From Candidatus Woesearchaeota archaeon (GTDB taxonomy: Archaea; Nanobdellota; Nanobdellia; Woesearchaeales; WJKL01), in NCBI GenBank assembly GCA_019322435.1, contig JAHWIR010000008.1, positions 21,647 to 85,646 of the forward strand: 64,000 nucleotides of DNA, given 5' to 3'. Positions 8,873-55,350 of this stretch are shown in pieces. The position numbers and the translations under genes are program-made. The notes under the pieces are model-generated. The model did not search any database and was not told the DNA's origin. It saw only the letters and a list, made by a program, of their open reading frames with translations. Position 1 is the stretch's first letter. Every line of letters starts with the position of its first letter.

Positions 8873-8967
8873 ATTAAGAATTATTTTTATTGAGTATATA
8901 AACCTATTTGTATTGTTAATTTTCTTCTATCCTTTTGAGAAAAAACTGAAGATTTATTTGCCATCTT

Positions 8968-10170: not shown

Positions 10171-11387
10171 TTTAAGGAGTCTAAGACATTTCTAAGATTT
10201 AATGTAAATTTTGTAGGATCCATTGACATTGTAGTCCTAAACCAAAGCTCTTCTTCTTTTGTTTGAAATATGTGTCCTGGAGTAATACCTATATTTGTAG
10301 TTTCTAAAATATACTCAAACAATTCATGGGCATTCCCTATACCCTTTCTCCCTGCGTAATCTTTATTTATCTTTAAAAAGAATATATTGCCTGCTTCGGG
10401 TAGACATACTTTTTCAACAACTGGATGATTTTGACATAACTCCAGAGATGAGTTTACTCCTTGCTTAATTTTATTAAAAAAACTATCGAGTTCTTCAGAA
10501 TATTGTAAAGCTTCTGGAGATGTGGCTCCTACATCCATACTTGCTCTCAATCTCATCTCGGCTTTCATTATTTCATCTATTGTTTTTGAAACACAAAAAC
10601 CGGCGACCTCAGATGCTAAATTAAGGCTTTTTACAATGGAGGGGTCTCTAGAAATACTCCAGCCAATTCTAAAATCATTCATATGAGGTCGATCTTTACT
10701 TGGGCCTTTTATCTTTATCAATTTAGAGTAGTTTGATGTTGAAAAGAAATTGTGGCTTCTTGGATTTCTTGTTGCTTCTTCAAAGATAGCATCTAAAACA
10801 ACCACAATACCTGAGGATTCTGCTAAATTAATTACATCTTCCAATGTATTTTGATTAATATAGCTACAACATGGGTTTCCAGGAGATGTGAGAAATATAC
10901 ATGAGGTTTTCTCTGTTATGCAATTTTGAATATCTTTTACATTTGGTTGGAATCTGTTTTCAAAGTAAGTAGAGGTCAATACTGGCTTTAGACCATTATA
11001 AATTACTCCCCTTTCTATCTCTGGATATGCTGGTATTGGAATAATAATTTCATTTTTACCATTATTTTCAGATTCTTTCTTTAAATATCGGAAAATACTA
11101 TCAAAAGAACCAGTTACACCACCAGAATTTACAACTATATCTTCCTTAGAAAAGCCAGTTCCTTCATAATTAGATTCATGCAAGGCTACTAATTCTCTTA
11201 AAGAATAAGACCCTGCAGGATCATCATAACCTAACTCAACTTTGCCAGATTTTAATCTATCAAATGCGTCTTTTATGCAAGTCATAATAGGATATGATTC
11301 CATCCTAAAATTAGATGCATCTAATAGGACTGCTCCTTTTCTTTCTGCAATTTCAAAATAAGTTGACATGTCTGAAATTTTAATCAT
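10167..11387 (-). CDS. Class I/II (fold-type I) PLP aminotransferase; DapL/aspartate-aminotransferase-like
   Basis: LTSPGNPC and VVLDAIF motifs are present, together with SKDRPHMNDFRIGW, which carries the PLP-Lys followed by the conserved Arg-Gly. The protein is 406 aa. Confidence 0.75.
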   Translation of the reverse strand: MIKISDMSTYFEIAERKGAVLLDASNFRMESYPIMTCIKDAFDRLKSGKVELGYDDPAGSYSLRELVALHESNYEGTGFSKEDIVVNSGGVTGSFDSIFRYLKKESENNGKNEIIIPIPAYPEIERGVIYNGLKPVLTSTYFENRFQPNVKDIQNCITEKTSCIFLTSPGNPCCSYINQNTLEDVINLAESSGIVVVLDAIFEEATRNPRSHNFFSTSNYSKLIKIKGPSKDRPHMNDFRIGWSISRDPSIVKSLNLASEVAGFCVSKTIDEIMKAEMRLRASMDVGATSPEALQYSEELDSFFNKIKQGVNSSLELCQNHPVVEKVCLPEAGNIFFLKINKDYAGRKGIGNAHELFEYILETTNIGITPGHIFQTKEEELWFRTTMSMDPTKFTLNLRNVLDSLK

Positions 11388-12327
11388 CCTCCTTTGCTGG
11401 CTGTTTTTTATTTCTTGTAGCAGCTATTATAGGGATATTGCCTCCGCTATCTAATAAGTTTCTTTCATTTTTTCTAAATTTAGATGATAAAAATTCGAAA
11501 ATAAGATTGACTATATGGATACCAGTAACATTATTTGAATCAAATGAAGAGTTATACTCTACAAAATCTATGCCTTTTACATCTCCCTTCTTTCCTAGGT
11601 CGCAAATCAACCTTCTCGCAATACTATAATCAATGCCTGCTGGTTCTGGATAATTTGTCGCTGGTGCAATACTTGGATCTAAAACATCTATATCAAAAGA
11701 TAAATAAATTGGTTCATTTTCTTTAATCTTATCTAATAATGAAGCTGGACCTTTATCTTTCAGCTCAGTAGATGTTATCACTGTATTTTGATCTTTAATG
11801 GAATCTTCAATCCCTGGACCTGTATTGAGATTTCCACGCAGACCACAATGAATTACCTTTTGTACATTAGGTAATTTACTAACATACCTCATTACAGAGC
11901 CATTTGGAAAATTAGGTTCATTAAGATAATCACTATGGGCATCTAATTGAACTACAGTAATCTCGTTTTCATATGCAGACACTGCTGGAAAAGTTATATA
12001 ATGATCTCCTCCTAAAATAAGAGGAAAGCTATTTGAATCTAATATCTTTTTAATTTCCTTCTTTATTGTTTCTTCAATGGGTCTTGAACTAACATCTATA
12101 TTTCCAGTATCATTAAAAGTGATTCCATCTAAGATATATCCTCTTTCAGGATTATACATTTTTATAGGCTGTGCATTACCGTCTATATTAGAATATCTTT
12201 CACTAAGTTTTCTTAATGCGTCTGGACTTTTTTCTAAATTGGATCCTATCCCTACCACAGATACTATCTCACTGCATTTAGACCTATCTTTTAGATATGG
12301 CTGATTCAAGAAAGTTGGCTTAATCAT
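11380..12327 (-). CDS. Arginase/agmatinase/formiminoglutamase-family ureohydrolase
   Basis: The binuclear-Mn motifs GGDHYITFP, DAHSD and SFDIDVLDPS are present. The start is assigned to the internal ATG (MIKPTFL), which has a GAGGT Shine-Dalgarno sequence 7 nt upstream. The ORF track extends instead to an upstream GTG at 12351. Confidence 0.8.
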   Translation of the reverse strand: MIKPTFLNQPYLKDRSKCSEIVSVVGIGSNLEKSPDALRKLSERYSNIDGNAQPIKMYNPERGYILDGITFNDTGNIDVSSRPIEETIKKEIKKILDSNSFPLILGGDHYITFPAVSAYENEITVVQLDAHSDYLNEPNFPNGSVMRYVSKLPNVQKVIHCGLRGNLNTGPGIEDSIKDQNTVITSTELKDKGPASLLDKIKENEPIYLSFDIDVLDPSIAPATNYPEPAGIDYSIARRLICDLGKKGDVKGIDFVEYNSSFDSNNVTGIHIVNLIFEFLSSKFRKNERNLLDSGGNIPIIAATRNKKQPAKEDD

Positions 12328-12343
12328 TTTTACCTCTGAAATT

Positions 12344-13453
12344 TTAATCACCCTCCCCTATTGATTGATTTTTGTTATCCGCAGTAGCTATTAAAACAAT
12401 TATATCGTCCTCTTTTTTGATATTTCCTAATTCCTCTAAAGAAGCGTAAACCGATCTTGAAGAAAATTCTAAGTCAGGAAGTTCTTGTTCATGAGTTGCT
12501 TCTATTTGCTGATCTGTAACAGAAACCGCCACTCCTTTTGTTTTACTTAAAATATCCATTATTTTAAAGAAATTAAAGCAGGTATCTGATGCAATTGCTT
12601 CAGCTTTAGATTCTATTGGGTTCTCAATCACTACAATATCCATCCTATTTTCGATAGTATAGCCTTGTGTAATTGGGTCTGCTCCTTGTATTTGGACTGT
12701 CACAAATTTTGGCATTTTATCAGTCAGACCCATGTCTACCAAATCATTAAACCCATAATATTGAGCAACAATATTGCCACCACTACCTACAGGGATAACA
12801 ACCAAATCTGGAATATCCTGCATTTGAAGGAATATTTCATAAGCAATGGTCTTAAGTCCTTGTGAATAAGGAAGATTAGTAACAGGAAAACCATTATAGA
12901 CTGAATCATCAGATCCACAGAATTCGAAAAAATGTTCATAACTTCTAATTAAGTCTTGATCATATATTACTTCAGATTGTTTTTCTAATTTTTCTTTTTT
13001 TGGTGTGGGGGTGTCTTCAGGAACAAATACTATTGACTCTAATCCTGCTTTGCTTGCATAATATCCTAGAGATATTGCTGCGTTTCCTGTTGAAGGGATT
13101 GCTATTCTATTTTTTCCTGAGCTTAAAGCGTCAGAAACAAGCATAACCATTCCTCTATCTTTAAAACTTTGGGTTGGATTTTTCCCCTCATCTTTTAAGT
13201 AAATACCTTCCCGTAATTTCAATAAGGGCGTGCTTCCTTCTTCATCAGTAATTTTATCTACTATATCAAAAGGGATGCAATTCTTAAATCTCTTAATACC
13301 TTTTTCATCTGAGGTTAATGATTGTGGCAAAGTGTATGATGGAGTCCAAATATTCATTGGAACGCCACCAATAGACAATTCTGGATGCTTGTGTTCATTA
13401 GGATTGTTTGCCCTAAAGCTACAAACATCACAAGATAGATAATCTATTTTCAT
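12344..13453 (-). CDS. Threonine-synthase-like PLP enzyme (fold-type II, Trp-synthase-beta superfamily)
   Basis: The hallmark KDEGKNPTQSFKDRG PLP-lysine motif is present, and the 369-aa protein carries N-terminal CDVC cysteines. Confidence 0.8.
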   Translation of the reverse strand: MKIDYLSCDVCSFRANNPNEHKHPELSIGGVPMNIWTPSYTLPQSLTSDEKGIKRFKNCIPFDIVDKITDEEGSTPLLKLREGIYLKDEGKNPTQSFKDRGMVMLVSDALSSGKNRIAIPSTGNAAISLGYYASKAGLESIVFVPEDTPTPKKEKLEKQSEVIYDQDLIRSYEHFFEFCGSDDSVYNGFPVTNLPYSQGLKTIAYEIFLQMQDIPDLVVIPVGSGGNIVAQYYGFNDLVDMGLTDKMPKFVTVQIQGADPITQGYTIENRMDIVVIENPIESKAEAIASDTCFNFFKIMDILSKTKGVAVSVTDQQIEATHEQELPDLEFSSRSVYASLEELGNIKKEDDIIVLIATADNKNQSIGEGD

Positions 13454-13454
13454 T

Positions 13455-14630
13455 TTATTCTCTTATTAAATCCATTATTCTTTGAGATATTCTTCTTGAA
13501 TCTTTAATTGTAATTGCTGAATTCCAAATCGGTGAGCAATATTCACATTCTTGTTCATCATACAAAATATTGGCATTGTAAGTTTTATTGAATTCTTTTA
13601 TTGCATTGATTATTCTTTCATTGCAATTAGCACAGTTTCCTGAAGTTGTATGTGGGAATAATTCATTTCTTTCAATTCCTGGAGCAACTCCCTGGCTTCC
13701 GCTTAATATTTCTTCATCAAAATAACCACCAAGTCTTAAGTCTCTACCTGCTCCTAATTCCTTAGTTACTCCTCTAACAACTTCTATAACGCTCCACAAC
13801 CAAGGAACCCTATATGATCCTATTTGATATAGATAATCTGCGAGTGAATGTGCTTGTAAAGAAGTTGGCTCAATAGATACTGCATCAGAGCCATTATTGA
13901 AAGCGAATATTGAGGTTTCTACAGCATCATCTATTGCTTCTTTTTCAGTTAAAAAAGGCGGTTTTTGATTTACATAAGTTAAGGCCCTGAAATCATAGTC
14001 GTGCAGTGTTCTAATTGCTTCTAGATAAACATCTAAATTAGGCATATTTTTATGATGACATAGCTCTCTTATATCCGGGTTAGTAGATTCGAGTCCAATG
14101 CCTACTTCAATCAGACCTTTATTCACGCTTTTTATGTTCTCAATAACTTCTGGAGTTACATATTCTGCTCTAGATTCTATGATTGTTTTTTTAATTCCTA
14201 GCAAGGAGTCAATTGAAGAAAATATTTCTTTCATTGCTTCAATTGGAACCTCTTCTGGATTAAGAAAACTTCCCAGATTATATAAGCAAAGAACAGGATA
14301 ATCGTTAATGTCAAAATCAAGATTCCTTTCTATTGAGCTTCCATCAATTACGCTTTTCCATTGAGTAATATACTCTTCTGTAGTTACTGGGGTATCTGTT
14401 GTTCCTTCATAATGCCCGCATGTTGAGCAGCCTTGATTTAATCCATAATGACTGCATCCTGTGGATCTTAGAACAACCATAATCCTATCTATTGTTTTGT
14501 TCTCAAACCAAAATTTATTTATCTCAACTTCGGCAGGTTTGTTATGATCATATTTTCTAGGGGGTGATTGTTTTCTTAATTCTTTTAGCTTTTTTTCCAC
14601 AAGCTCCAAAGCTGTCTTGAATTCATCCAT
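13455..14630 (-). CDS. Fe-S / radical-SAM-like protein with atypical cysteine triad
   Basis: The protein has CSHYGLNQGCSTCGH (CX8CX2C, not the canonical CX3CX2C) near the N-terminus of a TIM-barrel-like region. It also has a C-terminal CANC...CEYC cluster. The assignment is tentative. Confidence 0.4.
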   Translation of the reverse strand: MDEFKTALELVEKKLKELRKQSPPRKYDHNKPAEVEINKFWFENKTIDRIMVVLRSTGCSHYGLNQGCSTCGHYEGTTDTPVTTEEYITQWKSVIDGSSIERNLDFDINDYPVLCLYNLGSFLNPEEVPIEAMKEIFSSIDSLLGIKKTIIESRAEYVTPEVIENIKSVNKGLIEVGIGLESTNPDIRELCHHKNMPNLDVYLEAIRTLHDYDFRALTYVNQKPPFLTEKEAIDDAVETSIFAFNNGSDAVSIEPTSLQAHSLADYLYQIGSYRVPWLWSVIEVVRGVTKELGAGRDLRLGGYFDEEILSGSQGVAPGIERNELFPHTTSGNCANCNERIINAIKEFNKTYNANILYDEQECEYCSPIWNSAITIKDSRRISQRIMDLIRE

Positions 14631-16008
14631 CCTGATCTCCTTGTATTCTGTTTAATAGAGAGATTATGGGCCTATATTTGTCTCCTGTATCTATTGGTGT
14701 TTCTTTAACCAAATGAACATTGACTTCCATATCTCTTGGGATTAATTGATATAGGCTTTCTTTTATTCTCCCTTTTTGAGCAGGACTTAGACCAAATCTA
14801 CCTTTAACTATAAATAAATCTAAGTCTCCTTTTGTATTTTGAACAAGCTGGTATTTCAACCCATGAATAGGAACATCTAATTCCAAATACCAATTATAAG
14901 CCACATCCATAAAACTGCCCGCAGGTATTATTTCTTTATCATTTACAACAATGGAATCCATATATCTCCCTTGAGGAGAATCTATAACCCTAAAATTACT
15001 TCCACAATCGCAGTTATTTGTTCTTTGTATAGATCCAATGTCTCCTTGTGAATAACGTATAATTGGCGTGGCTTCGTTTAGCAAATTTGTACCTATAACA
15101 AGGCCTCTTTTTCCATTTTCTACTACATTTGTTGTTTCTGGATCAACAACTTCAACATAACAAGCGTCTTCTTCCAAGTGATACTTTCTACTTGTACATT
15201 CAAGAGCGATTCTTGTGAGCTCTTCACTACTGAACTCATCCAGTACATTAACCTTAAAGAAATCAGAAAGTTCTTTTCTTTCAGCTTCTGTTGACTGTTC
15301 TGAATGTATAACAATCAGTTCAACCCCTGAATTTTCAAGATTACATCTTCTTCCCATGATTCTTTTCAAATAAGTGGGATAAGTGGATAGCACCTTGGGT
15401 CTTAATTTTTCTATTGTCTTAACAGCTTCCTCGACAGGGATAGTGGTGGGGGAAAATTCTGTAGGATATTCCCCATCAATTGAAGATACCCACCAAGGAC
15501 TTGTATAGATAAACAGAGCTAAATCTGTTGGATTATAATTGCCACCACTTTGAAAATAGAATTGCCTTGCTCCTTGAAGTGTGTCCATGTAAATAGCCTC
15601 AGAAGATACAGCAATAGTAACAAATTTTCCGGTTGATCCTGAACTTCTTGTAGTAAATTCTGTGCTGTGTTTTTTACTGATTGTTTTTTCAGGGAACCCG
15701 CTTATCAGTTCCTCCTTGGTCAATATAGGCAGTTTTTGAAAATCTTTCCATGTCTTAATGTCTTCTGGTTCAAAACCAACAGAAGAATATTTTTCTTTGT
15801 AAAGATCAACTGTCTCAAAAGCATGTTTAACTAATTCCTGGATTCTTTTAAATTGGAGATCTTTAATTTTCTCTAATGGTTGCTTATAGAAATCTCTTAT
15901 TTTTTCCCATCTAAGATTCATTATTCTTCGAAGTTGGGCATGGTCTCTTTCAGTTTCTTTTCTCTTATTGCTTGTTCCTAAATTTAAGTAGATTGATTCA
16001 CTAGTCAT
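14623..16008 (-). CDS. Adenylate-forming enzyme, phenylacetate-CoA ligase (PaaK)/coenzyme F390 synthetase/CapK family
   Basis: The P-loop-like SSGSTGKFVTIA matches the TSGSTGKP AMP-binding motif. The 461-aa length and overall pattern fit the family. Confidence 0.75.
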   Translation of the reverse strand: MTSESIYLNLGTSNKRKETERDHAQLRRIMNLRWEKIRDFYKQPLEKIKDLQFKRIQELVKHAFETVDLYKEKYSSVGFEPEDIKTWKDFQKLPILTKEELISGFPEKTISKKHSTEFTTRSSGSTGKFVTIAVSSEAIYMDTLQGARQFYFQSGGNYNPTDLALFIYTSPWWVSSIDGEYPTEFSPTTIPVEEAVKTIEKLRPKVLSTYPTYLKRIMGRRCNLENSGVELIVIHSEQSTEAERKELSDFFKVNVLDEFSSEELTRIALECTSRKYHLEEDACYVEVVDPETTNVVENGKRGLVIGTNLLNEATPIIRYSQGDIGSIQRTNNCDCGSNFRVIDSPQGRYMDSIVVNDKEIIPAGSFMDVAYNWYLELDVPIHGLKYQLVQNTKGDLDLFIVKGRFGLSPAQKGRIKESLYQLIPRDMEVNVHLVKETPIDTGDKYRPIISLLNRIQGDQDG

Positions 16009-16925
16009 TTTAGATTCACTTTATCTCCATCATTAAGCACATAATCCCTCCCAACCATTTCTCCGTCATGGGTTGTTGAACTTCCAAAGATTTTAGCACC
16101 TTTAATTTTGTCTTTACCTAGACCTATTTTTTTTGCAAAATCTCCTACTGTTACTTCTTGGTTTCTGGGAAATATTAAAGGATCGCCATCTACCTGGCCA
16201 TTTTTGAAACAGTATACCCTCCTGATATTTAGTAATCTATATATTTCATCTCCGATGTCAGTAGGAGAAGATATGTCCACTACATTATATTCTTCATAAT
16301 CAAATTTAGACCATGCAGCCACAAAAGAGGGTTTTTCTATGATATCCTCTTTTGATCTGTATTTATGCTTCTTAGACTCAGAAACATTTCCGGAGATTAT
16401 TATAAGATAATCTTCAAGAGTAGAGATAACAGAACTCAGCTCTTTTTTATCTCTTACAGCAACACAAATAACATCGGAATTTCTTATGAACTGAATTTTA
16501 TTTTTATCATTATCTCCCCCATATAAAGAAGGCACTTCTGCTATTTGTATAGGAACGTCGTTGTATACAAAAATGCCTGCTTCTGGTTTGTATGTAGTAA
16601 AAGGTGCATCAGATATCTTTGGATTTGAATTTGTCAGCATTTGCATTAAGGTACTTTTACCAGAATTTGCTTCACCTACAATTGCAACTTGCCTGTTATA
16701 TTTTATTGAACTGTAAATATTTTGGGGTGGTTGTTTTTTCTTAGAAGATGTTTTCTTTTTTAAGACATCTAATTCTTTTTTGAATTTTGTTCTCAATTCT
16801 AAGTCTCTGGAATCTTTTGGGTTAAGTACGACTAATTCTTCTAATAATCTTATTCTTTCTTGTTCTGTGCTTACATGATTGAGTTTTTGTTTTTTTAGTC
16901 TAAATGCTATATTCTGGTTTTTCAT
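16005..16925 (-). CDS. Divergent Obg/DRG-family GTPase with C-terminal TGS domain
   Basis: G1 is IVGEANSGKSTL and G2 is DAPFTT. The G3 position reads IAEVPSL, a degenerate form of DxxG. The C-terminus (TVGDFAKKIGLG...DGDKVNL) resembles a TGS domain. Confidence 0.65.
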   Translation of the reverse strand: MKNQNIAFRLKKQKLNHVSTEQERIRLLEELVVLNPKDSRDLELRTKFKKELDVLKKKTSSKKKQPPQNIYSSIKYNRQVAIVGEANSGKSTLMQMLTNSNPKISDAPFTTYKPEAGIFVYNDVPIQIAEVPSLYGGDNDKNKIQFIRNSDVICVAVRDKKELSSVISTLEDYLIIISGNVSESKKHKYRSKEDIIEKPSFVAAWSKFDYEEYNVVDISSPTDIGDEIYRLLNIRRVYCFKNGQVDGDPLIFPRNQEVTVGDFAKKIGLGKDKIKGAKIFGSSTTHDGEMVGRDYVLNDGDKVNLK

Positions 16926-16961
16926 ATTAATGCACCATGTTACCCCCGAGAATAATAAGAT

Positions 16962-16982
16962 AATGTACTTTAAAAACCTTCG
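16962..16982 (-). promoter_or_regulatory. Candidate archaeal TATA/BRE promoter element for the minus-strand enzyme operon
   Basis: The minus strand reads AAGGTTTTTAAAGTACATTA about 45 nt upstream of the GTPase ATG. Its T/A-rich box fits the TTTAWA consensus. Confidence 0.3.
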
Positions 16983-16987
16983 TCAAA

Positions 16988-17719
16988 TTACTCAGCCATC
17001 TTCCACAGCATCTCGAAAAAAGCTCTGTAACTATCTGCTACTTCTTTTGATGTTATCAAGAAGACTATTGGGAGTTTTTTAAGGACTAGGATTCCAACGT
17101 GATTTGCATAGATGTCGACTGCTGCTGGTGTTTTCATGTTTTTTGGCATGTATTTTACTTTTGTTAATGGCAAGCTGGAATAGAATTTTCCTGTGGTTTT
17201 TGCATCTGCATTGAAGATCATTCTCATTTTTATGCCTTTTTTGATTCTTCTTCTTGTGTATTGCTTGAAATAAGTCTTTGCCATGAAGGATTCATCCTGG
17301 CCTCTGGCTCCAAACACCAAAATTTCATCTCCTTTTTTTAGTGTTGCAACAATATTATCATAAACATTCCTTACTCCTTTGTAGCCTTCGTAGGTTGTTG
17401 CTTTTTCTTCTGGAAGATGCTCTTTTTCAATTGCTTTTAATCTTGGGATTATTTCCTGGATCTCTCTTTTTTCTTGTTCTAAGAGATTTAAAAGAGTATT
17501 TGGGTCTGCTGCTGAGAAATGTTTTCTGTTTGCTTTTAGATGGAAACTTACCAGTCCTTTTTCTATCAGTTTGTTCAAGGATTCGTATACTCTTGATGTA
17601 TGCAAGCCAGATTTGTGAGTTAGGGGGCCTGTTGTTGTGGTGCCTAATTCTAGCAAAGAAAGATAAATTATTATCTCATTCTTTGTAAGGCCTAGTTTTT
17701 CAAGTATTGGCTGCTCCAT
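16988..17719 (-). CDS. TrmB-family transcriptional regulator (wHTH + C-terminal effector domain)
   Basis: The N-terminal LTKNEIIIYLSLLELGTTTTGPLTHKSGLHTSRVYESLNKLIEKGLV segment is a TrmB-type HTH. The 243-aa length matches the family. Confidence 0.75.
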   Translation of the reverse strand: MEQPILEKLGLTKNEIIIYLSLLELGTTTTGPLTHKSGLHTSRVYESLNKLIEKGLVSFHLKANRKHFSAADPNTLLNLLEQEKREIQEIIPRLKAIEKEHLPEEKATTYEGYKGVRNVYDNIVATLKKGDEILVFGARGQDESFMAKTYFKQYTRRRIKKGIKMRMIFNADAKTTGKFYSSLPLTKVKYMPKNMKTPAAVDIYANHVGILVLKKLPIVFLITSKEVADSYRAFFEMLWKMAE

Positions 17720-21657: not shown

Positions 21658-23481
21658 TTATGATTTCCTTCTTCTTGTCATCAAATACCCGCCAATAGCA
21701 ACTACAGCTATGACCAAAGCCATTCCTATTGTTGAGAACTCTGGGATGACTCCTGGAGCTGGGATTACGACTCTGTTATCATAGGGGTCTGATGGAACAG
21801 GGGTTGTGCCACAGTAAGGAGCTTGGCCTGTACAGAACGTGAAAAACCAGGCTTCTATTGGATAATTTATCGGAGCGGTCACACTTATGGTAGCACTTCC
21901 TAAGGAAGCTGGTCCATTCCAAGAGCCAATAACATCTCCATAATCATCAATAACAAAGATATATACCTGCATCTCGGGGCATTCATTTACACCAATAGTC
22001 CAACCAGCATTTAGTTCTAATTCTTCTTCATCAAACTCAGCAGAAACACTGGACAGGCTCATTTCAGGGCATTCTTCCTCTGTAATAGTAACCTTATAGT
22101 CTTCTACTTCTCCGTTAGGCCAATAACCTACAGGAGTTAATCCTCCTTCAATGCTAATTCTAAATCTTGCATAAGTAGGACCTAATTCTGCGTCGCATGG
22201 CACCATAAAACTCAGATTGATTACTCCTGCTACTGGCTGACTAGCAAAAATCTGCTCTGCAGGATGATCAAAAACACCATTTTGATTAAAATCAATCCAA
22301 GCATCAAGTAATCCTCCTTGTGGTGCTGTAACTGTTATGATTGCTTGTTGACATGGTATCAAAGGTGTATTGAATACAACACCATCTTCGTCATCAAGAT
22401 TATTAATATCGTCTCCGTCTGCATTTGCTGTAGGTTGTCCATCCGGTTCAACATCTCTCTGATTCCCTAAGAAAGGTCCTATTGCAAGATGTCTTGCTCC
22501 ATCGCTTGCTAACAATGTTGAATAGCTGTCTGGTGCATCTCCGAAGTCAAGTTCTTCTTCAGGCGGTGGCAGTATACACTGCTCCTTGTATATCTCGTCC
22601 AAAGCAGTTATTGTATACAAGTGTCCATCAGTTCCGTCAAAATTATCACCTATGATAATTGGTTCTGAACAAGAAGTGTGTTTTGTTGCAGTTGCTATCA
22701 GCTGTCCGTTTCTCCATACTTCTATTTTTGTCTCTGGACTTATCTTGTCCTTAAAGTTTCCTTTTGCGTCGCTGTTGCTGACTGAATTTATAGTCATGCT
22801 GATTCCTGTTGTAGTTAATGAGTCTATTATCAAATCATGCTGGCCGACATTATTATCCACATTAGAAGATGAAACTGTTGCTGTCTCAGAGTCCTTTAAT
22901 TTTGTCTTTCCTGCGCCATATACCTTAACTTCAACTGAGTCTCCTTCAGTAAAGGAGTAATCAAAATCAACGCTGAGCGAGTTTAGTCCTTTGCACTCAG
23001 TACATACTGCTCCAGGAGGAGAATGATGAACATCTATGCAGACTTCATCTCCAGAGGATGGTTCTGGTATTGTTGCTGTATAGATTATTGGATTGTATTC
23101 AAGGTCAGCAGGATAGCCTGTTAATGTTATTTCTGGATCTTGGTCTCCGCCATAAACAATCCAGTCATATGATAAAGCTCCATTAATATAAATCCATTCG
23201 CCATCGCTTCTTAATTCATCAGCTTCAACTGTTCCATCACCATCATTGTCATGCTCTCCATATGATATATATGGCTTTGCTACTGAATCTAAAGTGGTCT
23301 TTATTTCGATGGTGGTTCCTTGGTCTGTAACTTCTACTTCACTGTGGTATCCTAATACAGAGTTATGGAGATAATAAACAGCATCTCCTGCATAATTAAA
23401 ACAAACAGAAGACTGGTCTCCACCAGCTAAAACAATAGTGCTTAATAATGCCAGCACAAGGGCGTATAAGAAAATTTTCAT
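21658..23481 (-). CDS. Secreted cell-surface protein with C-terminal PEF-CTERM-type archaeal sorting signal
   Basis: An N-terminal signal peptide is present. The C-terminus reads PEFSTIGMALVIAVVAIGGYLMTRRRKS, a PEF motif followed by a TM helix and a basic tail. GDAPDSY and Asp/Gly-rich segments are also present. Confidence 0.6.
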   Translation of the reverse strand: MKIFLYALVLALLSTIVLAGGDQSSVCFNYAGDAVYYLHNSVLGYHSEVEVTDQGTTIEIKTTLDSVAKPYISYGEHDNDGDGTVEADELRSDGEWIYINGALSYDWIVYGGDQDPEITLTGYPADLEYNPIIYTATIPEPSSGDEVCIDVHHSPPGAVCTECKGLNSLSVDFDYSFTEGDSVEVKVYGAGKTKLKDSETATVSSSNVDNNVGQHDLIIDSLTTTGISMTINSVSNSDAKGNFKDKISPETKIEVWRNGQLIATATKHTSCSEPIIIGDNFDGTDGHLYTITALDEIYKEQCILPPPEEELDFGDAPDSYSTLLASDGARHLAIGPFLGNQRDVEPDGQPTANADGDDINNLDDEDGVVFNTPLIPCQQAIITVTAPQGGLLDAWIDFNQNGVFDHPAEQIFASQPVAGVINLSFMVPCDAELGPTYARFRISIEGGLTPVGYWPNGEVEDYKVTITEEECPEMSLSSVSAEFDEEELELNAGWTIGVNECPEMQVYIFVIDDYGDVIGSWNGPASLGSATISVTAPINYPIEAWFFTFCTGQAPYCGTTPVPSDPYDNRVVIPAPGVIPEFSTIGMALVIAVVAIGGYLMTRRRKS

Positions 23482-23543: not shown

Positions 23544-24383
23544 TTATCTTTTTAGTTTGTTATACATCTTATAGAGATATAGGGAATCTTTGATTTGCTC
23601 TCTTTCCCAGCCTTTTTTTATTAGGATAGTTATAATTTGTTTTTCTGTTTTTCCTTTGCGCTTTAATTTTCTTACTTTGGAGAGCAGTATTTTTCTTGAC
23701 ATAATCCTTAATAAGCTTCTCTTTTTCATTACTGAAGAAAAGAAAGATGGTTCGGTTTCTTTTTCATCTTTTTCAGCCAGGTATTTGTCATATCTGTGGA
23801 GGGCATCAATCACATGCCTTTCTTGCCAGCCTTTTTCTATCAATAATTTCTTTATTTTTCTATTTTCCAGTTTTTTGCGCTTTAATTTTCTTATCCTGGT
23901 GAACAATAGCTGCCTTCTGAATTTTCTCCTTATCCTTCTGAAATGTTTCTTTTTTAGTGGCAGGACAAGCGCAGGGATCTCTTCCTCTTGTTTTTTGATC
24001 TCAGCATCATACCTGTAGATTGCATCAATCTCGTGTTTTTTCTTCCAGCCTTTTTTTAGCAGTATTGATTTAATCTCGGTGTTTTTCAGTTTTTTGCGCT
24101 TTAGTTTTCTTATCCTTGCAAACAATAATCTTCTTCTAAATTTCCTTCTTATCTTGTGGAAAAAACCTGATTCTCTTGGCGGAATAATTATAGCAGGGGT
24201 TTTATCTTCTTTTTTTAGATGACGTTTCTTATACCTATGGAGGGCATCACCTACATGTTTTGCATGCCACCCTTTAATAATCAGTAATTTTTTAATTTCC
24301 CTTTCAGGAAGGCCTTTTTTGGTTAATTTTATTATGCGGTTGAACAATACCTGCCTTCTTATTTTTCTTTTTATCTTATGAAG
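23544..24383. repeat. Intragenic tandem DNA repeat, ~220-bp period x4
   Basis: The TTTTTTGCGCTTTAATTTTCTTA core recurs near 23648, 23874, 24090 and 24330. Confidence 0.7.
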
Positions 24384-24716
24384 GAGCTTTCCCTTTTTCA
24401 ACACCAGGAAAAATAAGATGATGATGACAGCTGGAGGCAGTATCAATGCCCACCACTCTATTCTTTTTCTTTTCTCTTCTTCAATCTTTAACTCTATTTC
24501 TTTTTCTGCTTTCTTTGCTTTCAGGTATTCATTAAGAGCTTTTAGTACTGCTTCAGGGATTTCAGTTTGGTTATAATCTTCTTGAGAATCATCATAGACA
24601 CTGATTGTTTCTGCTTCTAGCTGGGGCTCATCTTGTATTGTTTCTTCCTGCGCAGCAGCTGGCATAATCAAAAGAAACAGCAATACAGTTAAGGATATCG
24701 CCTCTTTTTTACTCAT
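23544..24716 (-). CDS. Basic single-pass membrane protein with four tandem ~70-aa repeats ('KGW' module)
   Basis: The protein has a signal peptide, one TM helix and then four copies of an RRKFRRxLLFxRIRKLKRKKL...IKxLLIxKGWxxxHVIDALHRY module. The underlying DNA has a period of about 220 bp. Confidence 0.6.
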   Translation of the reverse strand: MSKKEAISLTVLLFLLIMPAAAQEETIQDEPQLEAETISVYDDSQEDYNQTEIPEAVLKALNEYLKAKKAEKEIELKIEEEKRKRIEWWALILPPAVIIILFFLVLKKGKLLHKIKRKIRRQVLFNRIIKLTKKGLPEREIKKLLIIKGWHAKHVGDALHRYKKRHLKKEDKTPAIIIPPRESGFFHKIRRKFRRRLLFARIRKLKRKKLKNTEIKSILLKKGWKKKHEIDAIYRYDAEIKKQEEEIPALVLPLKKKHFRRIRRKFRRQLLFTRIRKLKRKKLENRKIKKLLIEKGWQERHVIDALHRYDKYLAEKDEKETEPSFFSSVMKKRSLLRIMSRKILLSKVRKLKRKGKTEKQIITILIKKGWEREQIKDSLYLYKMYNKLKR

Positions 24717-24877: not shown

Positions 24878-25183
24878 ATGGCAACTAAATGTGCAAAAGT
24901 TGGTGTTAAGAAAGAAAAAGGCTTTCTTTACTTTGTTGACAAGAAAGGAAATGTAGCAAGAGCAAAGATGGCAAGAGGAAAGAAGAAAGGCAAAGCAAAG
25001 ATACAAGTTGTAGCTAAAGTTGGTGTTAAGAAGAAAGCTGGATTCTTGTACTTCATTGACAAGAAAGGAGATATTAGCTGTGCAAAGATGGTAAGAGGCG
25101 GCAAGAAGAAAAAGAAGAAAGCTGCTAAGAAGAAAAAGCCAGCTAAGAAAAAAGCTAAAAAGAAAGCAAAGAAAAAGCGATAA
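24878..25183 (+). CDS. Small lysine-rich basic protein with internally duplicated ~45-aa domain and histone H1-like KKAKKK tail
   Basis: Two copies of K(V)GVKKxxGFLYF(V/I)DKKG...AKM(A/V)RG are followed by a (K/A)-rich tail. A T-rich terminator-like tract lies downstream. Confidence 0.6.
   Translation: MATKCAKVGVKKEKGFLYFVDKKGNVARAKMARGKKKGKAKIQVVAKVGVKKKAGFLYFIDKKGDISCAKMVRGGKKKKKKAAKKKKPAKKKAKKKAKKKR
24893..25095. repeat. Intragenic direct duplication (~85 bp x2, spaced 120 bp)
   Basis: gcaaaagttggtgttaagaaagaaaaaggctttctttactttgttgacaagaaaggaaatg is near-repeated as gctaaagttggtgttaagaagaaagctggattcttgtacttcattgacaagaaaggagata. Confidence 0.6.
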
Positions 25184-25243: not shown

Positions 25244-26128
25244 TTATATTTTTTTTATTATTACTACTTCTTCAAGAAGTTTTTCAGCACTAGATATTAT
25301 TCTGGCTAATGCTCTTTCAAGTGATTTTTCTGTTGCAGAAAGTTTTTCTTCTATTCTTGCTGCTGCTGAGGATTCAACCAGATAAAGATCATTTCTTATT
25401 ACAGCCAATTGTTTTTTTAGTTCAGGGATAAGCGTGGAAACAGCAAGCTCTATTCTTTGAAGATCACGAAGTTCTTTTTCGATGTTTTTGGTTATTTCAT
25501 TGATATTTGCTATTTTCAGCCTGTCTAGTATCTTGTCCAGAGCTTCTATCTCCTTTCCCAGCAAAAAGATATTTTTAGAGACTTCAATCTTTTCTTTTGC
25601 AAGTGGTCTTTTGAGTATTTCAGGGGCTCCTGCTGTCTCGTACAGACGCCTGGCTGTTGTCTTGATCTCTTGTTTCAAAAGATTAAGCTGATTTGCTATC
25701 TGCGCTGATTGTTTTTTATCAGCCAACTTGTCTACTTCTCTGTGGAACTGGTCCAATGCTCTGGATTCCCGGTAGAGGATTGTGTCTGCGTCCAGGCAGA
25801 TGTTCTTTAGGTCTGATATGATGGAATCAATCTGTTTCAGCAGGTCAATTGTGTCATGCCTGATTATAGCAGAGAGCTCTTTAACAGTTGAGCTTTGTCT
25901 TGCGTATGTATCTCCAAGTTGAGGCTGCTTTTGTCTTAGTTTTACTTTTTGCACTGAAAGTTTTGATAATTCAGAATTTGCTTTTTTCAGTTTTTGAAAA
26001 TTTGGCTGAAGTCTTTTGCTTATCCTTGCAATCTCGTTCCTGGATTTCAGGATAGTTGCTGCATTTTCCTGGATAGACCTTGATAAAGAAGTGGAGGTTG
26101 CTAATCTGAGCTTGTATTGAGCAGCCAT
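25244..26128 (-). CDS. Hypothetical coiled-coil protein (294 aa)
   Basis: It is a long ORF encoding a heptad-rich, Lys/Glu/Leu-rich sequence. Confidence 0.5.
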   Translation of the reverse strand: MAAQYKLRLATSTSLSRSIQENAATILKSRNEIARISKRLQPNFQKLKKANSELSKLSVQKVKLRQKQPQLGDTYARQSSTVKELSAIIRHDTIDLLKQIDSIISDLKNICLDADTILYRESRALDQFHREVDKLADKKQSAQIANQLNLLKQEIKTTARRLYETAGAPEILKRPLAKEKIEVSKNIFLLGKEIEALDKILDRLKIANINEITKNIEKELRDLQRIELAVSTLIPELKKQLAVIRNDLYLVESSAAARIEEKLSATEKSLERALARIISSAEKLLEEVVIIKKI

Positions 26129-26129
26129 T

Positions 26130-27050
26130 TTAGGTCATGATTTTCAGTTCTTTTTGCGTGTTTTTTAATTCAGAGCCGATTCCCTTGCCTATTAAGAAGG
26201 ATTGCGGAGCAATGACTCCTGACAGCATATCTAAGATTGTTTTTTCTCTTTTGTATTCTGCAAATTCTATATCTTCTAATTCTAAGTTTGTTATCAGCCA
26301 TTGTTTTGCTGTTTCCTTGTCTCCTGTTGCATCAATCAATCCAAATTCCAAAGCTTCGATGCCTAGATAAAATTCTCCTGTTGAGAGATGTTTTGCTTTT
26401 TCATAATCCATGTTCCTGTTTTCTGCAACTGCTTTTATAAAGATTTCATGTATCTTATTTATCTTTGACTGTAGGATAGCTCTTTCATCCAAGCCTAATG
26501 GTTTGAATGGGTCTCCAATGTCTTTATATGCTCCTCCAACTAATCTTTGATAAGTCATATTGTATCTTTCTAACAATCCTGCGAATTCAATGTATGAGGA
26601 ATAGACACCAATAGAGCCTGTTACTGACATTTCATTTGCAATGATATAGTCTGTTGCAGAAGCAATCCAATAGCCTCCTGATGCGCCTACTTCTCTGATA
26701 ACTGCAACAGTTGTCTTGTTTACTCTTTTGACTACATCTGCTATCTCTTTTGAAGCTACTGCAGAGCCGCCAGGAGAGTTGATGTCGAGTACAATTGCTT
26801 CTATTGCTGGATTTTTATCTGCTTTTTGTATCTGCTCGATGATGTCTGTTGAGCTTGCTGCTTGTGTGCCAAATGAAGAAGCTCCTTCAACTGTGATCAC
26901 TCCCTTTATTGGAATTACAGCAACATTGCCAAATGGCTCCATGTCAATAAAAAAGATAGAGATAATAGAAACAAAGAAGAAACTTATTATTGCAAATAGG
27001 ATTAGTGCTATTATTACTGCTGTTAACCTCTTTTTTGGCTGCTGCTCCAT
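26130..27050 (-). CDS. sppA: Signal peptide peptidase SppA (peptidase S49), membrane-anchored
   Basis: An N-terminal TM helix is followed by an S49 core with GGSAVAS and GASGGYWIA segments. Confidence 0.8.
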   Translation of the reverse strand: MEQQPKKRLTAVIIALILFAIISFFFVSIISIFFIDMEPFGNVAVIPIKGVITVEGASSFGTQAASSTDIIEQIQKADKNPAIEAIVLDINSPGGSAVASKEIADVVKRVNKTTVAVIREVGASGGYWIASATDYIIANEMSVTGSIGVYSSYIEFAGLLERYNMTYQRLVGGAYKDIGDPFKPLGLDERAILQSKINKIHEIFIKAVAENRNMDYEKAKHLSTGEFYLGIEALEFGLIDATGDKETAKQWLITNLELEDIEFAEYKREKTILDMLSGVIAPQSFLIGKGIGSELKNTQKELKIMT

Positions 27051-27082
27051 CTTTATTTAATTTGTTTAGATTGTATATAAAA

Positions 27083-27574
27083 CTATCTAATCTTATATTT
27101 CTGTATAACAGTGATGTGGTTTAATTTTTGCATAAGTCTTTGATTTTTTGGGGAAGTGAGCATATAGAAAAAATCAACTGCCCACAGGATGATGAATATC
27201 TTTGCTGCAATAAATGTTATGTTGCTGAACAGATAGTTCCGGTAAGATGCTTTTCCTTCAGGCACAACATAGATCCCGAACAGTATCTGGCCTGGTGTCT
27301 GCTGGATCTTATACTGCAGGTAAGTAAAATAAAGCACTGCAATGAAACTCATCATAATCAAGACCGAATATAATCTAGAGACTATCAAGGGATTGCTTTG
27401 TATATAAGCCTGCTGCTGGGAAAATGTTCCTGGCGGGATGATCTTCCTGACTAGCCTGTCAAAAGGGAACAAGACAAAGAGGTCTAGGATTAAGATATCT
27501 ATTATGAAAGCAAAGATTCTTTTTGGAATTGATGCTGGTGCTAAGAAGAATTTATTACTACCTCTTTTTTTCAT
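27083..27574 (-). CDS. RDD-family membrane protein
   Basis: The KRIFAFIIDILILD RDD signature and TM helices are present. The start is placed at the internal Met so that the gene does not overlap the aIF-1A gene. Confidence 0.6.
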   Translation of the reverse strand: MKKRGSNKFFLAPASIPKRIFAFIIDILILDLFVLFPFDRLVRKIIPPGTFSQQQAYIQSNPLIVSRLYSVLIMMSFIAVLYFTYLQYKIQQTPGQILFGIYVVPEGKASYRNYLFSNITFIAAKIFIILWAVDFFYMLTSPKNQRLMQKLNHITVIQKYKIR

Positions 27575-27655
27575 AGAGATAGAGGGAGGGTATTTGTTTA
27601 AAAAAGTTGTTATTTTCGCAATGCTTATAAAGAAATCAGGGTTTTTAGAGGTAGT

Positions 27656-28000
27656 ATGAGCAAAAAGAAAGAAGAAGCTGCAAGGCAGGCTGCGATTGAG
27701 CGGCAGATTTCTAGAATCAGGCTTCCTAGAGGGAAGCAGACATTTGGCATTGTTGACCAAAGATTAGGCGGCAGCAGGATGAAGGTTAGATGCTTAGATG
27801 GAAAGACAAGGGTCTGCAGGATTCCTGGAAGGATGAAGAGATATTTGTGGGTGAGAGAAGGAGATGTCATCATTGTTGAGCCATGGGAATTGGGCGGAGA
27901 TGACAAAGGAGACGTCATCTACAAATATACAAAGAGCCAATTACAGTATATCAAAAGAAAAGGTTATCTAAAAAAGCTGGAAGAGTTTGAAGAGTTCTAA
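27656..28000 (+). CDS. eif1a: Translation initiation factor aIF-1A (S1/OB fold)
   Basis: The protein has an RLPRGKQ..G.V N-terminus, [38 protein letters not shown] and a C-terminal acidic end. Confidence 0.9.
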
Positions 28001-55345: not shown

Positions 55346-55350
55346 TACCC

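What the first reader, a model, noticed from the sequence alone, without database searches (positions are those of the whole stretch)
23544..24716. Highly basic 4x-repeat membrane protein whose 'KGW' helix module reappears on the tail of a surface-locus protein
Four ~70-aa repeats each contain (I/F)RRKFRRxLLFxRIRKLKRKKL ... (E/K)IKxLLIxKGWxxxHVIDALHRY. The last ~25 aa of each repeat resemble the cytoplasmic tail of the 59037-59903 protein ([24 protein letters not shown]). This suggests a shared intracellular interaction module linking otherwise unrelated envelope proteins. The Arg/Lys-rich stretches could bind nucleic acid or membrane.
Basis: seen in the sequence. Interest (0 to 1): 0.55.

Follow-up and report, generated by a model that had tools for sequence, protein, structure and literature searches.

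The report
RecX-like cytoplasmic tail repeats, DPANN archaea
The gene encodes a real, very basic single-pass membrane protein of a Woesearchaeota (DPANN) archaeon whose cytoplasmic part is four copies of a small three-helix module related to the repeats of the bacterial recombination regulator RecX. The same module forms the cytoplasmic tail of many other DPANN surface proteins, so it is an uncurated but widespread domain whose partner is still unknown.

Summary
**Observation: confirmed.**
- 23544..24716(-) encodes a 390-aa protein: signal peptide, ~65-aa acidic ectodomain, one TM helix, then four repeats (period ~73 aa; pI 10.4).
- The similarity to the tail of the 59037..59903 protein is real and longer than reported. 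It covers about 36-41 aa (three helices), not 25.
- Support: hhalign 94.5%, P 7.7e-8. An HMM built from tails alone scores the 390-aa protein at 21.7 bits; 1000 shuffles reach at most 8.0.

**What the module is.**
- AF2 folds it as a three-helix bundle (pLDDT 94.5).
- A family profile aligns to E. coli RecX repeat 2 (91%, P 9.5e-7). The "GW" glycine falls on RecX G100.
- No Pfam or NCBIfam model reaches its threshold on either window protein.

**Distribution.**
- An exhaustive profile search finds up to 1420 protein clusters, with 1-13 copies per protein.
- The copies nearly always lie on one side of a single TM anchor, including in giant surface proteins.
- All 12 hits that carry an organism name are DPANN archaea.

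**Function: not shown.** My best inference is a membrane-proximal cytoplasmic docking or polyanion-binding array. This protein is the most highly charged member examined.

**Verdict.** New variant of a known fold family; moderate interest.

The parts
23544..24716 (-). Gene for the 390-aa basic repeat protein (type I single-pass membrane protein)
   Evidence: ORF. Orthologues of 31-40% identity share the architecture. Synteny is conserved in three Woesearchaeota genomes.
24651..24716 (-). Residues 1-22, MSKKEAISLTVLLFLLIMPAAA: predicted signal peptide (or signal anchor)
   Evidence: N-terminal hydrophobic stretch ending in AAA-Q, conserved in orthologues. No dedicated predictor was run.
24456..24650 (-). 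Residues 23-87: short acidic ectodomain with the conserved helix EIPEAVLKALNEYL, followed by a K/E-rich stalk
   Evidence: pI 4.6 for residues 1-85. P54, V57 and A60 are nearly invariant in A4. AF2 predicts a helix from residue 55 onward.
24399..24455 (-). Residues 88-106, WWALILPPAVIIILFFLVL: transmembrane helix
   Evidence: Kyte-Doolittle scan. Strongly positive sequence follows it, which places the C-terminus in the cytoplasm.
24225..24383 (-). Repeat 1 (residues 112-164): Arg-rich extension of helix 1 plus the three-helix module
24003..24161 (-). Repeat 2 (residues 186-238)
23784..23942 (-). Repeat 3 (residues 259-311)
23565..23723 (-). Repeat 4 (residues 332-384), the most divergent copy
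59037..59903 (+). Gene for the 288-aa type I membrane protein (NCBI KY332_02910). It lies directly downstream of the S-layer-like gene and overlaps it by 4 nt.
   Evidence: The same gene order is seen in locus L002.
59649..59714 (+). Residues 205-226: TM helix of the 288-aa protein
59778..59900 (+). Residues 248-288, [41 protein letters not shown]: a single cytoplasmic copy of the module
   Evidence: The module (mean pairwise identity 0.60) is more conserved among orthologues than either ectodomain segment (0.49 and 0.31); the signal peptide scores 0.61.
21658..23481 (-). Context: 607-aa secreted GEVED-domain protein 62 nt downstream on the same strand. It has a PEF-CTERM-like C-terminal anchor.
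   Evidence: A comparable surface protein sits in the same position in L001 and L004, and only the C-terminal ~140 aa including PEF...TM...K/R is conserved.

Best explanation
**Shown.**
- The ORF is a real gene of a Woesearchaeota (DPANN) archaeon.
- It encodes a type I single-pass membrane protein with a small acidic ectodomain.
- Its cytoplasmic part is four copies of a ~40-53-aa three-helix module joined by ~20-aa flexible linkers.
- The module belongs to the RecX-type (HTH-like) three-helix repeat superfamily.
- It is a divergent, uncurated family that DPANN archaea place in 1-13 tandem copies directly on the cytoplasmic side of the membrane anchor of surface proteins. The 59037..59903 protein is one of these.

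**Inferred.**
- The module is a cytoplasmic docking unit that couples envelope proteins to a common intracellular partner.
- By analogy with RecX, which uses conserved basic residues on one face to bind the RecA-DNA filament and also binds DNA, the partner is most likely a polyanionic polymer. Nucleic acid, or a protein filament on nucleic acid, is more likely than lipid.
- The 390-aa protein is a specialised member. It has almost no ectodomain, and each module carries an added, strictly conserved Arg-rich extension of helix 1 (RRKxRRxxLF). The mean is about +12 net charge per 45 aa of module, the highest of the 159 proteins examined.
- I therefore read it as a dedicated membrane tether or adaptor rather than a surface effector. 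It may act together with the PEF-CTERM-like surface protein encoded just downstream.
For: **Gene reality and architecture.**

**Synteny.** The order RDD - S49 peptidase - coiled-coil protein - (small basic protein, opposite strand) - repeat protein - surface protein - U32 is the same in three genomes. Housekeeping proteins there are 57-64% identical; the repeat protein is 35% identical.

**Module homology between the two window proteins.**

**Fold.**
- AF2 on the single module gives pLDDT 94.5 with three helices.
- In the full-length model each repeat has pLDDT ~90 and the linkers are below 50.

**RecX relationship.**
- hhalign of the family profile A5 against verified E. coli RecX gives 91.3%, P 9.5e-7, over residues 77-111. 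The GW glycine aligns with RecX G100.
- G100 is the conserved glycine of the helix II-III turn, and RecX also has a conserved helix-II leucine (PMC2500204). The family L26 is 96% conserved.
- Pfam RecX_HTH1 exceeds its cut-off in multi-copy relatives: 89, 48, 40.6 and 28.1 bits against 26.
- NCBIfam RecX models hit relatives down to E 4e-8.
- IMG names one relative OraA/RecX.

**Distribution and topology.**
- Up to 1420 clusters at E<=1e-3, and 123 at E<=1e-10.
- Among 134 TM-containing hits, 111 have all modules after the last TM and 21 have all modules before the first TM. Only 2 are mixed.
- The opposite side carries S8 peptidase, beta-helix, FN3, LamG or Cys-rich domains.
- 12 of 12 organism-named members are DPANN.

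**Selection on the tail.** In the 59037 family the module (mean identity 0.60) and juxtamembrane segment (0.58) are more conserved than the ectodomain segments (0.49 and 0.31). Several polar residues are invariant.

**Charge.** +12.3 per 45 aa against a family median of +2.4. R191, R194, R195, D157, R161 and others are invariant in the subfamily.
Against: - No binding partner is identified, and no nucleic-acid or protein binding was tested.
- The window proteins themselves stay below every curated RecX threshold: Pfam 11.9-14.3 bits against 26, and NCBIfam 16.4 against 175.
- hhalign of the subfamily profile A1 against RecX is only 37%, P 3.6e-4.
- Foldseek gave no significant PDB match.
- Three-helix bundles are geometrically common. 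The general profile's strongest PDB sequence hits are de novo three-helix designs, followed by a Cbl UBA domain (E 0.009), with RecX at only E 0.26.
- In the general family helix 3 is acidic or neutral, unlike a DNA-recognition helix.
- Moderate basicity may partly reflect the Lys-rich, low-GC proteome (GC 32-42%).
- Contexts of other family members show no recurrent neighbour that could be the partner.
- The repeats here are separated by low-confidence linkers, not packed as in RecX.
Confidence: 0.5

Rival explanations
1. Passive anchor or topology plug. The modules have no specific partner. They are small, stable, positively charged folded units that fix the orientation of a single TM helix and stop large, force-bearing surface proteins from being pulled out of the membrane.
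For: - The modules are always adjacent to the anchor and on the cytoplasmic side.
- Copy number rises with ectodomain length: Spearman 0.34, p 2e-4. Proteins with ectodomains of at least 2000 aa carry 7 copies on average.
- Most family-wide conserved positions are hydrophobic core or turn residues: L5, Y8, I9, G16, I22, L26, G30, W31, V36.
- No conserved partner gene lies nearby.
Against: - The subfamily of the 390-aa protein has 3-5 copies behind an ectodomain of only ~65 aa.
- The cytoplasmic tail is more conserved than the ectodomain and has invariant polar residues.
- Subfamily-invariant Arg, Asp, His and Tyr residues look like a binding surface.
- The copy-number correlation comes from a sample biased towards multi-copy proteins.
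Confidence: 0.25
2. Peripheral membrane binding. The Arg-rich amphipathic first helices lie on the anionic inner leaflet, so the protein forms a sub-membrane carpet that shapes or stiffens the membrane.
For: - Conserved hydrophobic positions 1, 4, 8 and 12 of helix 1 are flanked by Arg/Lys.
- The first repeat starts 5 residues after the TM helix.
- The highest hydrophobic moments in the protein lie in the linker/helix-1 regions at about residues 104-107 and 250-257.
Against: - The helix-1 segments have muH of only 0.20-0.45 at mean hydrophobicity -0.36 to -0.79. That is too polar for classical surface-seeking helices.
- The C-terminal half of helix 1 is part of the bundle core in the AF2 model.
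- The extension is specific to this subfamily, so it cannot explain the family as a whole.
Confidence: 0.15
3. The module is a UBA/CUE-like protein-protein interaction domain (for ubiquitin-like modifiers or similar) and is not related to RecX.
For: - The pattern helix - G[YF] - helix - G - helix over ~40 aa resembles UBA.
- Sequence hits: Cbl UBA at E 0.009 with profile A5, and UBA_6, CUE and UBA in relative P0026.
- One of ten tails hits UBA at E 0.056.
Against: - The UBA alignments cover only helix 1 and the start of helix 2.
- RecX models hit far more relatives and with higher scores.
- hhalign to RecX spans 35 columns in register.
Confidence: 0.06
4. The resemblance is a compositional artefact of K/R/L/I-rich low-complexity or coiled-coil sequence.
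For: The composition is extreme (K+R 28%, L+I 23%) and the genome has low GC.
Against: - Shuffle controls: 21.7 bits against a maximum of 8.0 in 1000 shuffles, and 40.5 against 9.6.
- All copies align in register without gaps.
- AF2 predicts a globular bundle with confidence.
- The module is conserved across up to 1420 clusters.
Confidence: 0.01

Closest known systems
RecX (bacterial RecA regulator; Pfam RecX_HTH1/2/3 = PF21982/PF02631/PF21981; PDB 3C1D, 3E3V, 3DFG)
   Same: - Tandem ~40-50-aa three-helix HTH-like repeats.
- A conserved Gly in the helix II-III turn and a conserved Leu in helix II, both in register with the module.
- Basic character, and aromatic positions equivalent to RecX F78 and Y87.
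   Different: - RecX is a soluble bacterial protein of three (up to five) tightly packed repeats that binds the RecA filament groove.
- Here the repeats are archaeal (DPANN), tethered to a TM helix, and present in 1-13 copies.
- They carry a near-invariant aromatic residue (W) after the glycine.
- In this protein they are separated by flexible linkers and have an Arg-rich extension of helix 1.
- The window proteins do not reach any RecX model threshold.
DUF494 / Smg (PF04361)
   Same: The N-terminal region of the model (positions ~18-59) matches family relatives above the cut-off: P0036 at 45.1 bits and P0057 at 28.4 bits, against 22.6.
   Different: Smg is a soluble bacterial protein of unknown function. 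The window proteins give no hit at E<=1, and only one of the 12 repeats hits at E 0.011.
UBA / CUE three-helix domains
   Same: Similar size, and a G-[YF] loop between helices 1 and 2. Weak partial sequence hits.
   Different: Not among the top structural matches. The alignments are partial. No ubiquitin-system context is seen.
RepB' primase C-terminal helical domain (PF22448)
   Different: For the window tail, the only stretch shown, the match covers 15 residues (GYTREQIRAVLLREG) and scores 16.5 bits, below the 26.1 cut-off. There is no primase context.
Tandem three-helix nucleic-acid-binding repeat proteins (for example mTERF), and basic-repeat membrane receptors such as the ER ribosome receptor p180 (from my own knowledge)
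   Same: These are architectural analogies only. One is tandem small helical repeats forming a polyanion-binding array; the profile even picked up an mTERF protein at its periphery. The other is a single-pass membrane protein with a large, basic, repetitive cytosolic domain.
   Different: Homology is neither shown nor claimed, and the functions are not tested.

Membership tests
RecX family / RecX three-helix repeat superfamily | Repeat unit is a ~40-50-aa three-helix HTH-like bundle | tested here: met
RecX family / RecX three-helix repeat superfamily | Conserved Gly in the helix II-III turn and conserved hydrophobic Leu in helix II, in register (PMC2500204) | tested here: met
   hhalign of A5 against E. 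coli RecX 77-111 places the GW glycine on G100. G is 88% and L26 is 96% conserved in 289 instances.
RecX family / RecX three-helix repeat superfamily | Sequence scores above the curated thresholds of the RecX models | tested here: not met
   - 390-aa protein: RecX_HTH1 11.9 bits against 26.
- 59037 tail: 14.3 bits against 26.
- NCBIfam RecX on the 59037 protein: 16.4 against 175.
- The threshold is met only in multi-copy relatives: P0026 89.4, P0016 48, P0120 40.6 and P0071 28.1 bits.
RecX family / RecX three-helix repeat superfamily | Soluble protein of three tightly packed repeats forming a rigid curved rod | tested here: not met
   The protein has a signal peptide and a TM anchor. It has four repeats separated by ~20-aa linkers with pLDDT below 50, and pTM is 0.27. 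The model was built from a single sequence, so packing cannot be fully excluded.
RecX family / RecX three-helix repeat superfamily | Binds and destabilises RecA/RadA filaments; gene linked to recA | not testable with these tools
   The neighbouring genes are RDD, S49 peptidase, a coiled-coil protein, a surface protein and U32 peptidase, with no recombinase among them. No biochemistry is available.
UBA/CUE | Significant match to UBA/CUE models, and UBA as the best structural neighbour | tested here: not met
DUF494/Smg (PF04361) | Score above the gathering cut-off (22.6 bits) | tested here: not met
   Not listed for the two window proteins at E<=1. One of the 12 repeats hits at E 0.011. The cut-off is met in relatives P0036 (45.1) and P0057 (28.4).
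   See the shuffle controls, the positional conservation and the globular three-helix prediction.
DPANN cytoplasmic tail-module family (defined here, not curated) | Consensus LxxY[IV]xxxLxxG[YF][ST]xxQI[KR]xxLLxxGWxxxx[VI][DN]xA, in 1-13 copies, all on the cytoplasmic side of a membrane anchor | tested here: met
   Both window proteins match profile A5 (E 1.3e-34 with 4 domains; E 2e-14 with 1 domain). For architecture statistics, and for taxonomy.

The most novel reading that the evidence does not exclude
The module is the common cytoplasmic 'plug' of a DPANN-specific system linking the envelope to the cell interior. In this reading, adhesins, proteases and S-layer-associated proteins all dock through RecX-like repeats onto one intracellular polymer, either the chromosome/RNA or a RecA/RadA-like or cytoskeletal filament. 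The highly charged 390-aa protein would then be a dedicated tether, for example holding nucleic acid at the membrane or handling incoming DNA, much as RecX does at the bacterial competence machinery. It would work together with the adjacent PEF-CTERM-type surface protein.
Probability: 0.2. Interest if true: 0.75.

Novelty: new variant of a known kind. Interest (0 to 1): 0.5.

Why it matters
- DPANN archaea live attached to host cells and depend on a diverse, fast-evolving set of surface proteins. How these proteins are anchored, organised or connected to the cell interior is essentially unknown.
- This analysis turns one odd basic protein into a definable domain family. The family has up to 1420 clusters, 1-13 copies per protein, all named members from Woesearchaeota or related DPANN archaea, and no curated model.
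- It also supplies a structural handle (the RecX repeat) and a clear topological rule (cytoplasmic, next to the anchor).
- That gives a concrete bait for finding the intracellular partner and a marker for annotating DPANN membrane proteins.
- If the partner proves to be nucleic acid or a filament, it would be a new way of coupling envelope and cytoplasm in archaea. If the module is only a passive anchor, it is an annotation improvement.

Tried and rejected
- **Word-indexed homologue search with the full protein.** It found only 3 hits because Lys/Arg-rich words saturated the candidate list. The exhaustive profile search was needed.
- **Word-indexed search with the module alignment A3.** It found nothing, and A5 was too short to submit.
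- **The search for related loci with A3 and A4.** With A2 it returned only two loci.
- **phmmer of the full protein against the PDB.** Nothing found.
- **DNA-level tandem repeats.** None.
- **tRNA scan of the window.** None found.
- **Further module copies.** None in the window, and none in ~107 kb of related loci beyond the genes already queried.
- **Conserved partner gene.** None found next to other family members.
- **Literature searches.** Searches for RecX-like domains, cytoplasmic tails of DPANN surface proteins and DUF494 found no description of this module.
- **PEF-CTERM model.** NCBIfam gave no hit for the downstream protein, so that resemblance rests on the sequence only.
- **Amphipathic membrane-helix reading.** It is weakened by the hydrophobic-moment calculation.
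- **Periphery of the profile hits.** It includes unrelated or analogous three-helix repeats such as mTERF protein P0112. The figure of 1420 clusters is therefore an upper bound.
Full report
**1. The observation**

The ORF at 23544..24716 on the minus strand exists and encodes 390 aa. Its layout is as follows:
- an N-terminal hydrophobic signal-like segment (residues 1-22);
- an acidic ~65-aa segment, with pI 4.6 for the first 85 residues;
- one hydrophobic helix (residues 88-106, WWALILPPAVIIILFFLVL);
- a very basic remainder, with pI 11.1.

KGW occurs four times with a period of 73-74 aa. The four 53-aa units (112-164, 186-238, 259-311, 332-384) align without gaps. Repeats 1-3 are 53-66% identical, and repeat 4 is 34-36% identical to them. 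Repeat 4 scores 40.5 bits against an HMM of repeats 1-3, whereas 1000 shuffles of it reach at most 9.6 bits. No tandem repeat is detectable at the DNA level. The duplication is therefore old and has been maintained at the protein level.

**2. The link to the 59037..59903 protein**

I collected three homologues of the repeat protein and twelve of the 288-aa protein. From these I built an alignment of 12 repeats (A1) and one of 10 C-terminal tails (A2).
- Profile-profile comparison gives 94.5% probability, P 7.7e-8, over 36 columns.
- An HMM built only from tails finds the 390-aa ORF as the sole other significant hit in the six-frame translation of the window (E 1e-5; next best 1.6).
- That 21.7-bit score compares with a mean of -1.8, an SD of 3.3 and a maximum of 8.0 for 1000 composition-preserving shuffles of the cytoplasmic region.

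The resemblance is therefore real and is not due to composition. The two sets align without gaps over ~41-45 residues (A3), covering helix 1, a G-[YF] turn, helix 2, the G-W turn and helix 3. GW is not invariant: close homologues show NNY, RKW and GF.

**3. What the module is**

AF2 on the full protein (single sequence) predicts each repeat as three helices with pLDDT about 90, and linkers with pLDDT below 50. With the 12-repeat alignment, the single module reaches pLDDT 94.5, with helices at 2-22, 27-36 and 41-52.

*Structure comparison.*
- Foldseek found nothing significant.

*Sequence models.*
- On the window proteins, no Pfam or NCBIfam model reaches its cut-off. The best are sub-threshold hits to RecX_HTH1, RepB_primase_C and MCM winged helix.
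- In multi-copy relatives, Pfam RecX_HTH1 does exceed its 26-bit cut-off: P0026 89.4, P0016 48, P0120 40.6 and P0071 28.1 bits.
- NCBIfam RecX models hit relatives down to E 4e-8.
- IMG labels one relative OraA/RecX.

*Direct comparison with E. coli RecX.* I wrote down the E. coli RecX sequence from memory and verified it against PDB 3c1d; it is identical except for the two crystallisation mutations.
- A 71-sequence family profile (A5) aligns to RecX residues 77-111 (repeat 2) with 91.3% probability, P 9.5e-7.
- The subfamily profile A1 aligns in the same register, but weakly (37%, P 3.6e-4).
- In this register the glycine of GW corresponds to RecX G100. The structure paper singles out G100 as the conserved glycine of the tight helix II-III turn (PMC2500204).
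- The paper also marks a conserved helix-II leucine (L36, L96, L147). The family's L26 is 96% conserved.

*Caveat.* Three-helix bundles are common. The general profile's best PDB sequence hits are de novo three-helix designs, followed by a partial match to the Cbl UBA domain (E 0.009), with RecX at E 0.26. UBA-like ancestry is therefore a minor rival.

**4. How widespread it is**

An exhaustive HMMER search of profile A3 against 1.84 billion cluster representatives gave 1420 proteins at E<=1e-3, 123 at E<=1e-10 and 11 at E<=1e-30. I mapped modules and hydrophobic helices in the listed hits and in the homologues found earlier, 159 proteins in all.
- 111 have all modules after the last TM helix.
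- 21 have all modules before the first TM helix.
- 2 are mixed.
- 25 have no TM by my crude criterion. Several of these look short or truncated in the sequences I printed.

Copies per protein range from 1 to 13. Carriers include proteins of 5173, 3429 and 2842 aa. The non-module side carries signal peptides and typical extracellular domains: S8 peptidase, right-handed beta-helix/NosD, FN3, LamG and Cys-rich repeats. The modules are therefore cytoplasmic in both orientations.

All 12 hits for which a source gives an organism are DPANN archaea: ten Woesearchaeota, one Nanoarchaeia and one Nanobdellota. The window itself is Woesearchaeota (KY332_02910) and archaeal by content, for example diphthamide synthesis.

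The family consensus from 289 instances is LxxY[IV]xxxLxxG[YF][ST]xxQI[KR]xxLLxxGWxxxx[VI][DN]xA. G is 88%, W is 80% (plus Y 14% and F 3%) and L26 is 96%. The periphery of the hit list includes analogous repeats such as an mTERF protein, so 1420 is an upper bound.

**5. What is special about the 390-aa protein**

Its orthologues (A4) share these features:
- the signal peptide;
- a tiny ectodomain with a conserved helix (EIPEAVxxALxEY; P54, V57 and A60 nearly invariant);
- the TM helix;
- 2-5 repeats.

Each repeat has a subfamily-specific N-terminal extension of helix 1 with invariant arginines (RRKxRRxxL[FY]). Helix 3 carries a conserved polar ridge (H-V-x-D-A-x-x-R-Y; D157, A158 and R161 invariant).

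Its modules are the most basic of all 159 proteins examined: +12.3 net charge per 45 aa, against a median of +2.4. The helix-1 segments have hydrophobic moments of 0.20-0.45 at mean hydrophobicity -0.36 to -0.79. That is too polar for classical in-plane membrane helices and fits electrostatic binding of a polyanion better.

**6. Genomic context**

The gene order is RDD protein - S49 (SppA-like) peptidase - 294-aa coiled-coil protein - (101-aa Lys-rich protein on the opposite strand) - repeat protein - large secreted protein - U32 peptidase - diphthamide synthase. The order is the same in the window, in GCA_014729675.1 (L001) and in a JGI metagenome contig (L004). Between the window and L001, housekeeping proteins are 57-64% identical and the repeat protein is 35% identical.

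The downstream secreted proteins differ in domain content: GEVED in one, MopE/DUF4215 in another and DUF4114/DUF4215 in the third. All end in a PEF...hydrophobic...K/R signal.

The 59037 gene overlaps the stop codon of a 1232-aa S-layer-like gene by 4 nt. It is followed by a paralogue that lacks the module, and the same arrangement appears in L002.

In the 59037 family the cytoplasmic module (mean pairwise identity 0.60) and juxtamembrane segment (0.58) are more conserved than the ectodomain segments (0.49 and 0.31).

Other family members sit in unrelated neighbourhoods with no recurrent neighbour. No additional module genes occur in ~107 kb of fetched flanks.

**7. Mechanism**

*Shown:*
- a membrane-anchored, cytoplasmic array of RecX-type three-helix modules;
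- the same module at the anchor of many unrelated DPANN surface proteins;
- stronger conservation of the tail than of the ectodomain.

*Inferred:*
- The module is a docking unit for a common intracellular partner.
- RecX uses conserved basic residues on one face to bind the RecA-DNA filament, and it binds DNA.
- This protein is extremely Arg-rich, with invariant arginines.
- I therefore favour binding of a polyanionic polymer: nucleic acid, or a filament on nucleic acid.
- On that view the 390-aa protein acts as a dedicated tether or adaptor, possibly for the neighbouring PEF-CTERM-like surface protein.

*Confidence:* about 0.9 for the structural and family statements, and about 0.35 for the partner class. 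The overall figure I give is 0.5.

*Rivals:*
- Passive anchor or topology plug (0.25). Support: adjacency to the TM helix and a modest correlation of copy number with ectodomain length, rho 0.34, p 2e-4, in a biased sample.
- Peripheral lipid binding (0.15).
- UBA-like interaction domain (0.06).
- Compositional artefact (0.01; refuted).

**8. Comparison with known families, and novelty**

The module works like, and is probably homologous to, the RecX repeat. The protein is not a member of the RecX family:
- it fails the curated thresholds;
- it is membrane-anchored;
- its repeats are not packed in the model;
- there is no recombinase context.

No curated Pfam or NCBIfam model covers it. NCBI annotates the members as hypothetical proteins or by their ectodomain. 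Five literature searches found no description.

I classify it as a new variant of a known kind: RecX/HTH-type repeats used as cytoplasmic tails of DPANN envelope proteins. Interest is moderate (0.5). It is a clear, widespread and testable domain family in a poorly understood group, but its function is unknown and its fold is a common one.

Noticed in passing
window 24878..25183 (+): A 101-aa protein made of two ~38-aa repeats, K(V/A)GVKKxxGFLYF(V/I)DKKG(N/D)(V/I)xxAKMxRG, plus a poly-Lys tail. Its orthologue in L001 is 72% identical, and a clearly similar 81-aa protein is encoded at the same position in L004. In all three it is transcribed divergently from the repeat-protein gene. It has no Pfam or NCBIfam hit. 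It could be a small nucleic-acid-binding or chromatin protein.
   Followed up: partly
window 21658..23481 (-); L001 4770-7421; L004 7211-9082: The secreted proteins downstream of the repeat gene differ in domain content (GEVED/DUF7467; MopE/DUF4215; DUF4114/DUF4215). All end in (V/I)PEF(S/T)x(I/M)G + hydrophobic helix + K/R tail, which resembles a PEF-CTERM archaeosortase signal. Between the window protein and its L001 counterpart, only the C-terminal ~140 aa align. NCBIfam gave no PEF-CTERM hit, and I did not look for an archaeosortase.
   Followed up: partly
window 55342..60643 (+); L002 749-7046: An S-layer-like 1232-aa gene (S_layer_C, E 2.3e-9) overlaps by 4 nt the start of the module-bearing 288-aa membrane protein. 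A 258-aa paralogue follows; it has the same ectodomain and TM helix but no cytoplasmic module. Enolase comes next in the window. L002 shows a matching run of ORFs (1476, 355, 286 and 436 aa), which I did not identify individually. The small membrane proteins might be S-layer anchors.
   Followed up: partly
window 25244..27760 (-): An RDD-family membrane protein, an S49 (SppA-like) signal-peptide peptidase and a 294-aa all-helical coiled-coil-like protein with no family hit form a tight same-strand cluster. S49 and the coiled-coil gene abut, with one base between them. The cluster lies upstream of the repeat gene and is conserved in three genomes.
   Followed up: partly
P0036 and P0057 (relatives, not in the window): Pfam DUF494/Smg (bacterial, function unknown) matches module-bearing DPANN proteins above its cut-off, through its N-terminal region. 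This suggests that Smg may itself begin with RecX-type three-helix repeats.
   Followed up: no
window 24003..24161 (-), repeat 2: The Logan-derived copy of the protein (P0001) differs from the window protein at one residue in repeat 2: KKKHVID against KKKHEID.
   Followed up: no
L007 8001-12127 (Nanobdellota archaeon): A protein with two N-terminal modules (P0116) lies immediately upstream of the topoisomerase VI B and A subunit genes, on the same strand. This is a single case and may be coincidence.
   Followed up: no
window 8246..17719 (-): A run of nine same-strand ORFs (208-461 aa) sits in a region of lower GC (32-35%) and reversed GC skew compared with the flanks. I did not annotate them. 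It could be a glycosylation or envelope-biosynthesis island.
   Followed up: no
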